This document shows, piece after piece, positions 33,001 to 64,000 of a DNA stretch of 64,000 bases; the first letter of the stretch is position 1; the number at the start of each line of letters is the position of its first letter. The stretch is from Mytilus edulis (Eukaryota): the NCBI RefSeq assembly GCF_963676685.1, contig NC_092356.1, positions 38,254,001-38,318,000 of the forward strand, in the 5' to 3' direction. Made by a program: the position numbers.

Positions 33001-36000
33001 ATTATTTTCGTTTTTTTTAATTGTTTTCAAATTGGCCTTTTAAAGGGAGATAACTCTAAAACAGTGCATTTTCTGAAGGATCCTACATGGAATTTTCCTA
33101 TTTTGTATTTTAGCTGGAAAAAACGTACGGTGACCCGATCTTTTCTTATGATTTTCTGAAAGTATTGTCTGAAAGCTTTCTTTTCCTAATTTCTTTTGCA
33201 ATTCTATCATTTCGTTTAGTTTCTAATCACAAATTGGTGTTTTTTCCTGTATAATCCATACAAAATGTGTCATTTTGTCACCACTTGTAGCTTGAGAAAA
33301 TGCGCGGTGACCTATCATTTTTATTATATTTTTGAACATATATCAATAGATACTACGTTTTGGCAAAATATGAACAAATTCTATCATTTTTATTTTAGAC
33401 TCCCATACCACCTTTTTTTGATTTAAGTTGATTCAACTACTATTCTGGACAAAGAAAGATAACTCCAATTGAAAATTTCTTGCTATTGCACAATATTGTG
33501 CAATTAGATATTTCATGCTATTGCACAATACTGTGCAATTGAAAATATTTGCTATTGCACAATACTGTGCAATTGAAGATTTCTTGCTATTGCGCAATAG
33601 TGGCAATTGAAAATTTCTTGCTATTGCACAATACTGTGCAATTGAAGATTTCTTGCTATTGCTGAATACTGTGCAATTGAAAATTTCTTGCTATTGCACA
33701 ATACTTTATATAATAATTTTGGATCCTGATTTGAACCAACTTGAAAACTGGGCCCATAATCAAAAATCTAAGTACATTTTTAGATTCAGCATATAAAAAA
33801 AGCCCAAGAATTCAATTTTTGTTAAAATCAAACTTAGTTTAATATTGGACCTAATTGGAATTTAATGTAGACCAATTTGAAAACGGGACCAAAAATTAAG
33901 AATCTACATACACAGTTAGATTTGGCATATCAAAGAATCCCAATTATTCAATTTTTGATGAAATCAAACAAAGTTCAATTTTGGACCCTTTGGACCCCTT
34001 ATTCCTAAACTGTTGGGACCAAAACTCCCAAAATCAAAGCCAACCTTCTTTTAATGGTTATAAACCTTGTGTTTAAATTTCATAGATTTCTATTTACTTA
34101 TACTAAAGTTATGGTGCAAAAACCAAGAATAATGCTTATTTGGGCCCCTTTTTGGCCCCTAATTCCTAAACCGTTGGGACCTCAACTCCCAAAATCAATC
34201 TCAACCTTCCTTTTGTGGTCATAAACCTTGTGTTTAAGTTTCATTGATTTCTATTTAATTATACTAAAGTTATTGTGTGAAAACCAAGAATAATGCTTAT
34301 TTGGACCCTTTTTTGGCCCCTAATTCCTAAACTGTTGGAACCAAAACTCCCAAAATCAATCCCAACCTTCCTTTTGTGGTCATAAACCTTGTGTCAAAAT
34401 TTCATAGATTTCTATTAACTTAAACTAAAGTTATAGTGCGAAAACCAAGAAAATGCTTTTTGGGCCCTTTTTGGCCCCTAATTCCTAAAATGTTGGGACC
34501 AAAACTCCCAAAATCAATCCCAACCTTCCTTTTGTGGTCATAAACCTTGTGTTAAAATTTCATAGATTTCTATTCACTTTTACTAAAGTTACAGTGCGAA
34601 AACTAAAAGTATTCGGACGACGACGACGCAGACGACGACGCCACCATCATACCAATATACGACAATTTTTGCGATCGAATAAAAAGCCTTCAAATAAATT
34701 ATTATAGCAAATTTTACTTTTCACTTTTCACTTTTCCTTTACACAGCATTACTTCTGAATTCAAAATGGATATCAAAGTCAAATGATAATCAATGTATAT
34801 GTATTCTGTATACGTAGTATAGTAAACCAGAAGGTTGACTTAAAATAAATGTTTTTTATACGTATATTTTGTTTAACAGTCCCTTTAGTCTATCATTGGG
34901 AGAGAGAGGGGAAAAGAGTATGTTAAAAAAGCAGGTAACAAGGAATTCATTCGCTTCATATACCACTTTTAGAAAATAATTAATATATATATATGATATG
35001 CCCATTTCTAGGAATAGAAATGAACTTCAAGTACTTGAAATGTATTTTCTGTTTGGACTGACCAACAGTATGATAGTGGTATGACATAACACCACAGAAA
35101 AGTTATGAAGAATGAAGTTAAAAATTCTTCTACATTTTAACCCAGACACCCCACAGAGAGTCAAATAGTAGACAATCATATCACAACCACATCTTAGCTT
35201 GGGGTTTCTACCAAATATTTGAATGTCTTTACTGATGTATTGTTTCCTAAAGAACATAAAAAAACTCAGGTAAATTTTTCAAAAGCCTACACCAAAACAT
35301 TGAATTGTAAAACAGTGCACACAGAAACTCTGCAATAATTGAAACTCTTAAAATGTTGCACTAAAAACCCTATTGGGATTATCAATAGTTGGCAGGTCTA
35401 GATCTGAAACTGTTGTATTTCTCTATTTGTTTCATCCTATCAAATATTATACAACTAAAGTCACTCTTTCTATCCTTTGACTAGTTCCTGGACAAGAATT
35501 AAAGAACTATATATAAATTTAGGCAATAAAGCATCAGAAAATAAGGGAAATTATTTTTTAAATTGTTATTATTGACAAAAAGAAATGGTATTCTTTGTTA
35601 TACTAAATCACATACTCTGTTGTAGCTCTTCTACGTCTCTTTTTCCCAATAAATGATGAACATGCAAAATCAGTAGAATTCACTAATACGTAGGTCTTAC
35701 AAAATCCATCAGCTAGATAACACACTTGTAGGTCTACAGTAACTGCATATTTTGATGAATCAAATCCTGATGCTAAGCTGTAGTTATACTGGAAAGTGTC
35801 ACCTATATTCTCTGTCACTACTTTATCTGAAATATTTTATATCAATAATTTAGAATACATTCCTTTATCCTGAGATAAATTAAAATTGATGTTCAGTACA
35901 TGCATCAATAAACTATTGAAATACAGATGTGTCTCATTATTTTTCAGCAATTCATAAATAACTACCTATCGCCTTTTCAATTTCAATTACATAAAAATAT

Positions 36001-63000: not shown

Positions 63001-64000
63001 GGTAACATCGGCAAAGACATTTTCATAGCACAACCTACAAAATACCACAAGTCTTATTAAATCTTTTTGTATAGAAAAATATCAATGTATTACATCGACA
63101 GAATTTGTGTTTTATTTTCATTTTTATGAAAAGGCTTAACAGAAAACTGTTAATTCAGAAATTATTGCATATATCTATTATTGCAATTGCAGACCTGCCA
63201 ACTTTTAAAAATCTCCATGGGGGATTTAGTGCGCGACCAGATTTTTAAGGGACAATTTTTGTGGCATTTCTGTGTGCAATGTTTTTTACTCTTGCTTTCT
63301 TTAATTTGCATGATTCTTGTACTTATTCTAAAATTGACAAAATAACTTTAGAATAGAGAAAAATGGCATTAAAAAGTAAAGGATACTAAGTGAAAACCCC
63401 CCTTTCCCCCCTTTCGTCAAACATACTATATGGCTATATAATATATCATTGGATTCAGAAAAATGAGTACTTTTATAATATTGTTGTCCTCAAAAAGAAA
63501 TGTGGTAACAGTTTTGCATGAAATAAGGTTAAAGATCAAATTCTGTGTTTTCCTTTTTTTTCTTCCATTCTTTTAAAATTTGAAGATATATACACCAATC
63601 TAGGTTAATATTCAGATACAGACATGTTTTCAAATCAATTAACAATGAATTATCTCGAAAATGTAAAAAAAATGAATTAGGAAATTGATTTATTCTTGTA
63701 ATTGGCGTTTTTCAAAACTTGGTTTATTCTACAAAATTTCTGTTAAAATTGATCAGAAAAACTTCAAAATCGGTAACCAACTATAATTTTCGGGGATATT
63801 TTGTGAAAAAAGGGATTTTGACTTATTTTACGATCCCGATATCGGGATTCAGATTGAGGGATTAAAATCAGGATGATATTGCGAAACTCAGGATAGTTGG
63901 CAGGTCTGCAATTGTTGAACTGTGGGTTTTAAAGAACGAGAAAATAATTAAAAACCACTTGTTCAGAGAACAAGGTCTTTCCACCACTGACAATATATTT

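What the first reader, a model, noticed from the sequence alone, without database searches (positions are those of the whole stretch)
35616..63034. Unrecognised ~200-aa Cys-rich domain repeated at least 7 times as a four-exon cassette
Each unit is exon A (~210 nt; C..C-x5-C-x4-CC-x~18-C..(W/F/Y)G), a 43-nt micro-exon B, exon C (155-170 nt; C-x-E..C..C) and exon D (156-174 nt; FSLxxW..LG(I/L)xxYL..C..GW). Units begin and end in phase 1, as expected for a shuffled extracellular module. Units are very diverged in sequence but keep Cys spacing. I cannot assign the module to EGF, vWC, TIL, SRCR, CUB or Ig families. The array continues past the window edge.
Basis: partly seen in the sequence, partly recalled or inferred. 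Interest (0 to 1): 0.65.

Follow-up and report, generated by a model that had tools for sequence, protein, structure and literature searches.

The report
New cysteine-rich repeat module in mussels

Summary
On the minus strand, 35616-63034 holds 24 exons, all with AG/GT borders. They form seven copies of a Cys-rich cassette: A about 210 nt, B 43 nt, C 155-170 nt, D 156-174 nt, in phases 1-1, 1-2, 2-1 and 1-1. Five copies keep A, B and C as separate exons. Units 2 and 7 have B and C fused. Unit 6 has no D. Unit 7 ends in KKRRRR.

The whole window is one Mytilus gene. Downstream exons encode a helical and beta region, FN3/Ig-like modules and a PAN domain. Database gene models from five Mytilus species splice the cassette the same way, micro-exon included.

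The structural module is probably D+A+B+C, about 195 aa with ten conserved Cys. AlphaFold predicts two helices followed by nine beta strands (pLDDT 81.5).

No Pfam, NCBIfam, PDB-sequence or Foldseek match reached significance. A unit profile finds 1341 representative proteins; the named ones are Mytilus and Crassostrea gigas. Some homologues start with a Vitellogenin_N lipid-transfer head.

My best reading is a new extracellular module family in a giant, convertase-processed secreted protein. Its function is inferred, not shown. The window's exons were searched one by one and never joined.

The parts
62825..63034 (-). exon A, unit 1 (210 nt, phase 1-1)
   Evidence: HMM i-E 2.8e-25
61871..61913 (-). 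micro-exon B, unit 1 (43 nt, phase 1-2)
   Evidence: present in M. californianus model P0004
61367..61533 (-). exon C, unit 1 (167 nt, phase 2-1)
   Evidence: i-E 6.7e-18
58969..59142 (-). exon D after unit 1 (174 nt); structurally the helical start of the next module
   Evidence: i-E 5.1e-12
58587..58796 (-). exon A, unit 2 (210 nt)
   Evidence: i-E 1.2e-27
58167..58373 (-). fused exon B+C, unit 2 (207 nt; B-C intron absent)
   Evidence: i-E 5.2e-23
56523..56690 (-). exon D after unit 2 (168 nt)
   Evidence: i-E 9.2e-9
54721..54927 (-). exon A, unit 3 (207 nt)
54057..54099 (-). micro-exon B, unit 3 (43 nt)
   Evidence: i-E 0.01
53341..53504 (-). exon C, unit 3 (164 nt)
51480..51653 (-). exon D after unit 3 (174 nt)
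50057..50266 (-). exon A, unit 4 (210 nt)
49096..49138 (-). micro-exon B, unit 4 (43 nt)
48493..48647 (-). exon C, unit 4 (155 nt)
48001..48156 (-). exon D after unit 4 (156 nt)
47438..47653 (-). exon A, unit 5 (216 nt)
46830..46872 (-). micro-exon B, unit 5 (43 nt)
   Evidence: i-E 0.14; tblastn with P0010
44660..44820 (-). exon C, unit 5 (161 nt)
43408..43581 (-). exon D after unit 5 (174 nt)
42948..43166 (-). exon A, unit 6 (219 nt)
41033..41075 (-). micro-exon B, unit 6 (43 nt)
   Evidence: the same peptide is in M. coruscus model P0011
39948..40117 (-). exon C, unit 6 (170 nt); no D exon follows
   Evidence: P0003 joins it directly to A7
36859..37110 (-). exon A, unit 7 (252 nt); opens with a shortened D-like piece (ISFDLW...C)
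   Evidence: i-E 2.2e-4
35616..35826 (-). fused B+C-like exon, unit 7 (211 nt, ends in phase 2)
35627..35644 (-). polybasic KKRRRR, a convertase-type site after the last module
   Evidence: read; kept as RRKKRRRR in P0013 and SKRRKR in the 35%-identical P0087
32302..32403 (-). downstream coding exon (approximate, tblastn bounds)
   Evidence: P0011, 94%
30707..30868 (-). downstream coding exon (approximate)
15656..15886 (-). downstream coding exon (approximate); helical region
13541..13696 (-). downstream coding exon (approximate)
   Evidence: 100% to P0010
12208..12438 (-). downstream coding exon (approximate); region of long beta strands
   Evidence: secondary structure only, from a low-confidence model
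11287..11499 (-). downstream coding exon (approximate)
9887..10093 (-). downstream coding exon (approximate)
9430..9750 (-). downstream coding exon (approximate)
4674..5096 (-). exon with a PAN/apple domain
   Evidence: Pfam PAN_1, E 4.1e-6, 27.0 bits against a cut-off of 21.4
914..3764 (-). five further exons (3627-3764, 3069-3167, 2138-2368, 1793-1978, 914-985) for FN3/Ig-like modules; approximate
   Evidence: ESM-feature leads to fn3 and Big_13

Best explanation
Shown: the region encodes the last seven copies of a tandem array of a real, so far uncatalogued extracellular protein module.

Inferred: the folding unit is exon D plus the following exons A, B and C, about 195 aa. It has a short two-helix element (D) tied to a nine-stranded antiparallel beta domain (A, B, C). 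Ten conserved cysteines would form five disulfides, proposed as C41-C86, C59-C80, C74-C85, C105-C187 and C163-C170 in profile numbering.

Inferred: the array grew by tandem duplication of a phase-1 symmetric exon cassette. Orthologous models show at least 15 copies.

Shown for the gene structure, inferred for the protein's fate: the array sits inside one giant Mytilus gene that fills the window. Its product is most likely secreted and N-glycosylated. It is most likely cut by a furin-type convertase at the conserved polybasic site right after the last module. That would give a module-chain subunit and a C-terminal subunit with a helical region, long beta strands, FN3/Ig-like modules and a PAN/apple domain.

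Inferred by analogy: some homologues start with a lipid-transfer (Vitellogenin_N) head. So the most likely job is as a disulfide-stapled, multivalent chain in a large extracellular lipoprotein-like, clot-forming or matrix-forming particle.
For: Anatomy and non-chance:
- 24 of 24 exons have AG/GT, and the phases are consistent.
- An HMM built without window sequence gave 22 ordered minus-strand hits against 1 plus-strand hit at E 0.96.

Real gene:
- Models from M. galloprovincialis, M. edulis, M. californianus, M. coruscus and M. trossulus are colinear with the window exons, micro-exon included. Identity is 95.7-100% to P0010 on six downstream exons.

Module:
- 139 full units in 46 proteins have ten Cys columns at frequency 0.91-0.99.
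- 119 of 139 units have exactly 10 Cys.
- Units carry a mean of 2.3 N-glycosylation sequons.

Register and disulfides:
- Units that lack Cys lack them in pairs: 163+170 in 8 units, 74+85 in 2, and 105+187, 41+86 and 59+80 in 1 each.
- The D cysteine would therefore pair with the CC doublet of the following A exon.
- Unit 7 opens with a short D-like piece and has no D after it.

Fold:
- AlphaFold2 on a 10-row alignment gave pLDDT 81.5 and pTM 0.77, with helices at 3-10 and 18-28 and nine strands.

Uncatalogued:
- No Pfam match to a unit and none in NCBIfam.
- 0 PDB chains at E<=10 with the unit profile.
- Foldseek gave 0 matches at E<=0.001 in PDB (best E 0.12, TM at most 0.31) and 0 in BFVD.

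Cleavage site:
- KKRRRR in the window, RRKKRRRR in P0013, and SKRRKR in P0087, which is only 35% identical.

Context:
- PAN_1 lies above its cut-off.
- P0016 has a hydrophobic N-terminus and Vitellogenin_N at 34.0 bits against a cut-off of 24.
- P0016 is colinear over 1921 aa with the M. edulis model P0168.
Against: - No expression, secretion or cleavage data were available. The signal peptide was judged by eye, and only in one homologue of unknown species.
- The 5' end of this gene lies outside the window. I could not chain its orthologues to the Vitellogenin_N-bearing proteins, so the lipid-transfer link may hold only for paralogues.
- The Vitellogenin_N match is partial in P0016, below cut-off in P0038 (19.4 bits against 24), and absent at E<=0.001 in P0168.
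- The disulfide map rests on few units, 1 to 8 per pair. Nine further units miss a single Cys column (seven at C59, two at C170); the C59 cases look like alignment shifts.
- The AlphaFold model used a shallow alignment, and I could not inspect its coordinates.
- The 1131-aa model of P0010 was poor (pLDDT 45.5, pTM 0.28), so the fold of the post-cleavage region is unknown.
- Several gene models in this family look chimeric, with CARD+ankyrin, RCC1, DEAD helicase or a tyrosine recombinase attached. This weakens arguments from domain architecture.
Confidence: 0.65

Rival explanations
1. The unit is a very diverged member of an already catalogued family, for example Pfam DUF4773 or a ZP-type module, so it would not be new.
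For: - The ESM-feature search listed an arthropod cluster in which 94% of members carry DUF4773. Its score was 0.77, at rank 10.
- A polybasic site follows the last module, as in ZP-module proteins. That comparison is recalled, not tested.
Against: - The tool itself calls a score of 0.77 a lead only.
- No DUF4773 or Zona_pellucida match appeared in 10 units scanned at E<=10, nor in any homologue scanned.
- The unit profile found 0 PDB chains at E<=10.
- Foldseek found no ZP or other fold at E<=0.001.
Confidence: 0.12
2. The modules are variable recognition surfaces, for immune pattern recognition or gamete recognition, rather than parts of a lipoprotein-like or structural particle. Each diverged copy would bind a different ligand.
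For: - Copies within one protein are only 29.5% identical on average.
- The family is large: 1341 representative proteins at E<=0.001.
- PAN/apple and FN3/Ig-like modules in the same protein are common binding modules.
- The unit also occurs next to a VWA fragment in P0053.
Against: - No binding, expression or polymorphism data were available.
- Orthologous copies are well conserved between Mytilus species: 78-90% for the exon A query, 52-99% across unit-exon HSPs.
- This reading does not exclude the main one.
Confidence: 0.2
3. The cassette array is a decaying or non-functional duplication, or an artefact of gene prediction.
For: - Every database model of this gene is partial. Some are chimeric or read into introns, for example the end of P0004.
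- The introns are full of repeats and hold a transposase.
Against: - All 24 exons are open, with intact splice sites and consistent phases.
- The ten Cys are kept in 119 of 139 units.
- The module is conserved from Mytilus to Crassostrea gigas: P0162 has five full units plus partial copies at both ends, E 2.7e-293.
Confidence: 0.03

Closest known systems
Large lipid transfer proteins cut by furin into two subunits (insect apolipophorin II/I; crustacean dLp/HDL-BGBP precursor)
   Same: - They are giant secreted precursors. The family members are named in the abstracts of PMC1783640 and PMC8416765, which I saw only in the search listing.
- Homologues of the array-bearing proteins carry a Vitellogenin_N head.
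- A conserved polybasic site divides the protein.
   Different: - The window holds no Vitellogenin_N.
- The furin cleavage of those known proteins is recalled, not read here.
- To my knowledge (recalled) none of them contains a tandem array of ten-Cys modules. They have amphipathic beta and helical lipid-binding regions instead.
Tandem ZP-N / ZP-module arrays of egg-coat proteins (for example abalone VERL), recalled
   Same: Both are tandem extracellular Cys-containing beta modules in molluscs, and both have a convertase-type site after the last module.
   Different: - There is no Pfam Zona_pellucida match.
- The Cys pattern differs: ten Cys with a CC doublet.
- The unit has a helical element.
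- Foldseek found no match to solved ZP structures at E<=0.001.
Pfam DUF4773 (PF15998)
   Same: ESM-feature similarity of 0.77. DUF4773 proteins are mentioned, without any function, in oyster haemocyte and octopus mucus papers (passages read).
   Different: There was no HMM match even at E<=10. Homology was not tested by profile-profile or structure comparison, because no DUF4773 sequences or models were at hand.
Multi-exon Cys-rich cassettes such as VWD-C8-TIL in mucins, hemolectin and zonadhesin (recalled)
   Same: Both are long secreted proteins built by repeating a disulfide-rich cassette of a few hundred residues.
   Different: Pfam found no VWD, C8 or TIL in any unit. The unit here is shorter and has a different predicted fold.

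Membership tests
Catalogued Cys-rich extracellular domains (EGF, vWC, TIL, SRCR, CUB, Ig, ApeC and others in Pfam-A) | A match to the family HMM at or above its gathering score | tested here: not met
   No match on any cassette ORF. None on the 5 full-length homologues first scanned. None on 10 single units at E<=10. Of 126 further representative hits, 125 had no family and one had a VWA fragment outside the unit.
Pfam DUF4773 | A match to PF15998, or a profile-profile or structural match to its members | tested here: inconclusive
   HMM match not met. There is only an ESM-feature lead of 0.77. Profile-profile and structure comparison were not possible with these tools.
ZP module | A Zona_pellucida HMM match and an Ig-like ZP-N/ZP-C fold | tested here: not met
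   No Pfam match. No Foldseek match at E<=0.001. Only the polybasic site after the last unit resembles ZP proteins.
SAP motif (for exon D) | A match to PF02037 | tested here: not met
   No SAP match in the window's ORFs or in the ten units. Canonical SAP motifs (E 1e-8 to 7e-4) occur in 5 homologues: P0016, P0037, P0038, P0164 and P0168. In P0016 the motif is a separate insert between the D-like and A-like pieces; in P0164 it lies upstream of the first D-like piece.
Large lipid transfer protein superfamily | An N-terminal Vitellogenin_N lipid-transfer module behind a signal peptide | not testable with these tools
   The 5' end of the gene lies outside the window. The feature is met in homologue P0016 (34.0 bits against a cut-off of 24). 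It is below cut-off in P0038 and not found in P0168 at E<=0.001.
Calycin-like folds (lipocalin, FABP, nitrophorin) and EPDR1 | Structural superposition with a TM-score of about 0.5 or more | tested here: not met
   These are among the top Foldseek rows, but with E 0.13-0.45, probability at most 0.41 and TM at most 0.31.
PAN/apple domain (downstream exon, not the unit) | A match to PF00024 above its gathering score | tested here: met
   Window 4632-5105(-) scored 27.0 bits against 21.4. P0013 scored 24.2 bits.

The most novel reading that the evidence does not exclude
The ten-Cys modules are the cargo-binding or particle-forming body of a previously unrecognised bivalve class of large lipid transfer protein. 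A Vitellogenin_N head would be followed by 15 or more disulfide-stapled beta-meander modules, taking the place of the amphipathic beta belt of apoB-type proteins. A convertase would then split off a PAN and FN3-like subunit. That would be a new structural solution for building a giant extracellular lipoprotein or clotting particle.
Probability: 0.15. Interest if true: 0.75.

Novelty: new member of a known kind. Interest (0 to 1): 0.5.

Why it matters
Bivalve genomes are full of huge "uncharacterized" secreted proteins. Naming and delimiting this module would help in several ways:
- It gives a handle on well over a thousand database entries, since 1341 representative proteins match the unit profile.
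- It would help repair badly fragmented or chimeric mussel and oyster gene models.
- It defines a tractable piece of about 195 aa for structure and binding studies.
- If the link to lipid-transfer heads holds for this gene, it points to an unknown kind of invertebrate lipoprotein or clotting protein.

The cassette is also a clean example of module expansion through phase-1 exons, with a conserved 43-nt micro-exon and datable intron losses.

Tried and rejected
- **Pfam and NCBIfam.** Pfam, exon by exon and on homologues, gave nothing for the unit. In one search I left out 16 of the 306 minus-strand ORFs, those antisense to the transposase ORF at 25002-27460. NCBIfam on P0013 and P0004 found 0 families.
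- **PDB by sequence.** P0013 gave one noise hit at E 0.91. The unit profile gave 0 hits at E<=10.
- **Foldseek on the unit model.** There was nothing at E<=0.001 against PDB or BFVD.
- **AlphaFold2 of the whole 1131-aa homologue P0010** (7-row alignment). The result was pLDDT 45.5 and pTM 0.28, too poor for a fold search, so none was run. Only its secondary structure is quoted, with that caveat.
- **"Exon D is a SAP motif".** Rejected. Pfam SAP hits in homologues are separate canonical motifs, not the D element itself.
- **A D exon for unit 6 or upstream of A1.** None was found inside the window.
- **Linking this gene's orthologues to the Vitellogenin_N-bearing proteins.** I looked for overlapping high-identity ends and found none.
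- **The listing of cluster members.** This would have given names and taxa for the unnamed representatives, but the query could not be made.
- **Literature.** Searches for seven LOC identifiers found 0 papers. "DUF4773" found 3 papers with no functional data. LLTP plus bivalve terms found nothing on this family among the 15 listed of 77.
- **Genome contigs** (bacteria and archaea only) was not used.
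Full report
**Scope and rule kept.** The window has no N and is 30-36% G+C. I searched window sequence exon by exon only. Every analysis of whole units or whole proteins used database proteins that the searches returned.

**Anatomy.** The coding strand is minus.
- Stop-to-stop ORFs and frame-by-frame reading give 24 exons between 35616 and 63034. All 24 have AG before and GT after.
- Exon A is 207-219 nt, and 252 nt in unit 7. Exon B is a 43-nt micro-exon in units 1, 3, 4, 5 and 6. Exon C is 155-170 nt. Exon D is 156-174 nt.
- Phases are A 1-1, B 1-2, C 2-1 and D 1-1, so A, B+C and D are each phase-1 symmetric.
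- Unit 2 has lost the B-C intron, giving one 207-nt exon.
- Unit 6 has no D exon. Its C exon ends in phase 1, and exon A7 starts in phase 1.
- Unit 7 is a terminal variant. Its A exon opens with a shortened D-like piece. Its fused B+C-like exon ends in KKRRRR and then a GTATGT donor at 35615.
- The finding's end coordinates are therefore exact exon ends.

**Is it more than chance?**
- The seven A exons share six invariant Cys, the seven C exons share two, and the five D exons share F, S, W, L and C.
- I built an HMM from ten database units (alignment A4), which contains no window sequence, and ran it over all 3518 six-frame ORFs of at least 12 aa.
- It found 22 minus-strand pieces in strict cyclic order, all inside 35681-63035. 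A, C and D exons of units 1-6 scored i-E 1e-8 to 1e-27. B exons and unit 7 were weaker, at 0.99 to 2e-4.
- It found one plus-strand piece, at E 0.96.

**The gene.**
- Exon A2 finds nine Mytilus proteins at 78-90% identity. All are named "uncharacterized" or "hypothetical", and none has a precomputed Pfam domain.
- A downstream ORF (15608-15979) finds four more.
- tblastn of these models onto the window shows that the whole window is one gene. The units come first, then exons at about 32403-32302, 30868-30707, 15886-15656, 13696-13541, 12438-12208, 11499-11287, 10093-9887, 9750-9430 and 5096-4674, and then five more down to 914.
- P0010 (M. galloprovincialis) is 95.7-100% identical on six downstream exons, so the window is from Mytilus, close to that species.
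- The models splice A-B-C-D as I mapped it, including the micro-exon and the direct C6-A7 junction.
- Orthologous models carry more units upstream. P0003 has 625 aa before the A1 equivalent, and P0001 has three further full units upstream of the ten classes. The array in this gene therefore has at least 15 units and runs off the window.
- Every model seen is partial.

**What the module is.**
- Cutting the stored proteins at FSLxxW gives 43 intervals, of which 36 are 191-200 aa. They fall into ten paralogue classes with 29.5% mean identity between classes.
- With all proteins fetched, 139 full units in 46 proteins show ten Cys columns, at profile positions 41, 59, 74, 80, 85, 86, 105, 163, 170 and 187. 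Their frequency is 0.91-0.99.
- 119 of 139 units have exactly ten Cys, and units carry on average 2.3 NxS/T sequons.
- Units that lack Cys lack them in pairs. The pair 163+170 is missing in 8 units and 74+85 in 2. The pairs 105+187, 41+86 and 59+80 are each missing in 1 unit, and two multi-loss units are consistent with these pairs.
- Nine further units miss a single Cys column, seven at C59 and two at C170; the C59 cases look like alignment shifts.
- I take this as a provisional disulfide map. In it the single Cys of exon D bonds to the CC doublet of the following exon A.
- Unit 7 also has its short D-like start and nothing D-like after it. Together these points indicate a folding unit of D+A+B+C rather than A+B+C+D.
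- AlphaFold2 on A4 gave pLDDT 81.5 and pTM 0.77. It predicts two helices in D (residues 3-10 and 18-28), a less confident loop, and nine strands across A, B and C. By residue position, the micro-exon covers one strand and the start of the next.

**Comparison with what is catalogued.**
- Pfam gave no match for any cassette ORF, which scanned 145 ORFs. Every hit there was below its curated cut-off.
- Pfam found nothing in the 5 full-length Mytilus homologues first scanned. The later scans of 4, 20, 8 and 126 proteins gave matches only to other parts of those proteins, none to a unit.
- Ten single units at E<=10 gave three noise families, each in 1 of 10 members.
- NCBIfam gave no family.
- The unit profile finds 0 PDB chains at E<=10.
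- Foldseek finds nothing at E<=0.001 in PDB. The best rows are PURA, nitrophorins and lipocalins, FABPs and EPDR1, at E 0.12-0.45 and TM at most 0.31. It finds nothing at E<=0.001 in BFVD either.
- The ESM Atlas lists mollusc clusters without Pfam families at 0.93, 0.90 and 0.87. It lists a DUF4773 cluster at 0.77, which the tool rates as a lead only. I could not test that lead further.
- AlphaFold DB was not available.

**Spread.**
- The unit profile finds 1341 representative proteins at E<=0.001, 537 at E<=1e-10 and 50 at E<=1e-30. Many are short fragments.
- Those representatives carry no names, and the look-up that would give names could not be made.
- Among the 20 named proteins, 19 are Mytilus and one is Crassostrea gigas LOC105342368. 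That protein has five full units plus partial copies at both ends (E 2.7e-293).
- The range shown is therefore mussels plus an oyster.

**Context that bears on function.**
- After the last unit come the polybasic site, a region predicted helical and then long strands. That prediction is secondary structure only, from a poor model with pLDDT 45.5.
- Further downstream are modules with ESM leads to fn3 and bacterial Ig-like families, and a PAN domain above its cut-off.
- The polybasic site is kept in P0013 and in P0087, which is only 35% identical.
- P0024, at 5183 aa, has 13 units followed by a region 37% identical to the C-terminal part of P0013.
- P0016 starts with a hydrophobic, signal-like N-terminus (judged by eye). 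It has Vitellogenin_N above its cut-off, and units begin at residue 1354.
- P0016 is colinear over 1921 aa with the M. edulis model P0168, and it also aligns with P0038 and P0037. That architecture is therefore unlikely to be a one-off prediction error.
- I could not show that the window's own gene has such a head.
- Other partners look like chimeric models: CARD+ankyrin, RCC1, DEAD helicase and a tyrosine recombinase. The M23 peptidase match in P0037 may be chimeric too.
- A VWA fragment precedes a unit in P0053.

**Verdict.** This is a real, conserved, uncatalogued extracellular module, encoded by a duplicated phase-1 cassette, in a giant and probably convertase-processed secreted bivalve protein. 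What the module binds or builds is not known. The lipoprotein-like or clot-like role is an inference from homologue architecture. No paper in the searched library mentions these loci.

Noticed in passing
window 25356-27437 (+), with an upstream piece at 21268-21735 (+): An uninterrupted 693-aa ORF lies antisense inside an intron. It matches Mutator-like transposase (E 8.9e-52), an RNase_T-type exonuclease and PML_C. A second ORF upstream matches the transposase N-terminus (E 1.8e-6). This is probably a fairly young transposable element.
   Followed up: partly
window 36050-36290, 62326-62555, 50950-51176, 51807-52003, 30548-30671, 31373-31544 and others: A dispersed repeat of about 240 bp, 81-92% identical between copies, sits in the same orientation in at least six introns of the gene. 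Its translation shows up as look-alike ORFs in the ORF lists.
   Followed up: partly
window 33989-34603 and 60239-60679; 41451-41938 and 44027-44307; 33466-33705; 10267-10402: Introns hold satellite-like tandem arrays: a 161-bp unit at two sites, a 168/145-bp unit at two sites, a 35/69-bp unit and a 17-bp unit.
   Followed up: no
window 58167-58373 (unit 2) and 35616-35826 (unit 7): The phase-2 intron between micro-exon B and exon C is missing in these two units only. These look like clean cases of intron loss, or of never having gained the intron, within one tandem array. The M. californianus model has the same fused reading for unit 2.
   Followed up: partly
homologues P0016, P0037, P0038, P0164, P0168 (not in the window): Canonical SAP motifs (Pfam PF02037, E 1e-8 to 7e-4) sit near the N-terminal, degenerate units of these apparently extracellular proteins. 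In P0016 the motif lies between the D-like and A-like pieces. That is an odd place for a motif known from nuclear DNA-binding proteins.
   Followed up: partly
window 47942-48001, just past the D4 donor: The M. californianus model P0004 ends by reading through the D4 donor into the intron. Other models splice D4 to A5. This looks like a gene-model break, not a real C-terminus.
   Followed up: partly
around window 10093 and its equivalent in P0013: P0013 has a second basic site, GRKKR, between the long-strand region and the first FN3/Ig-like module. I did not work out the window's reading at that exon junction.
   Followed up: no
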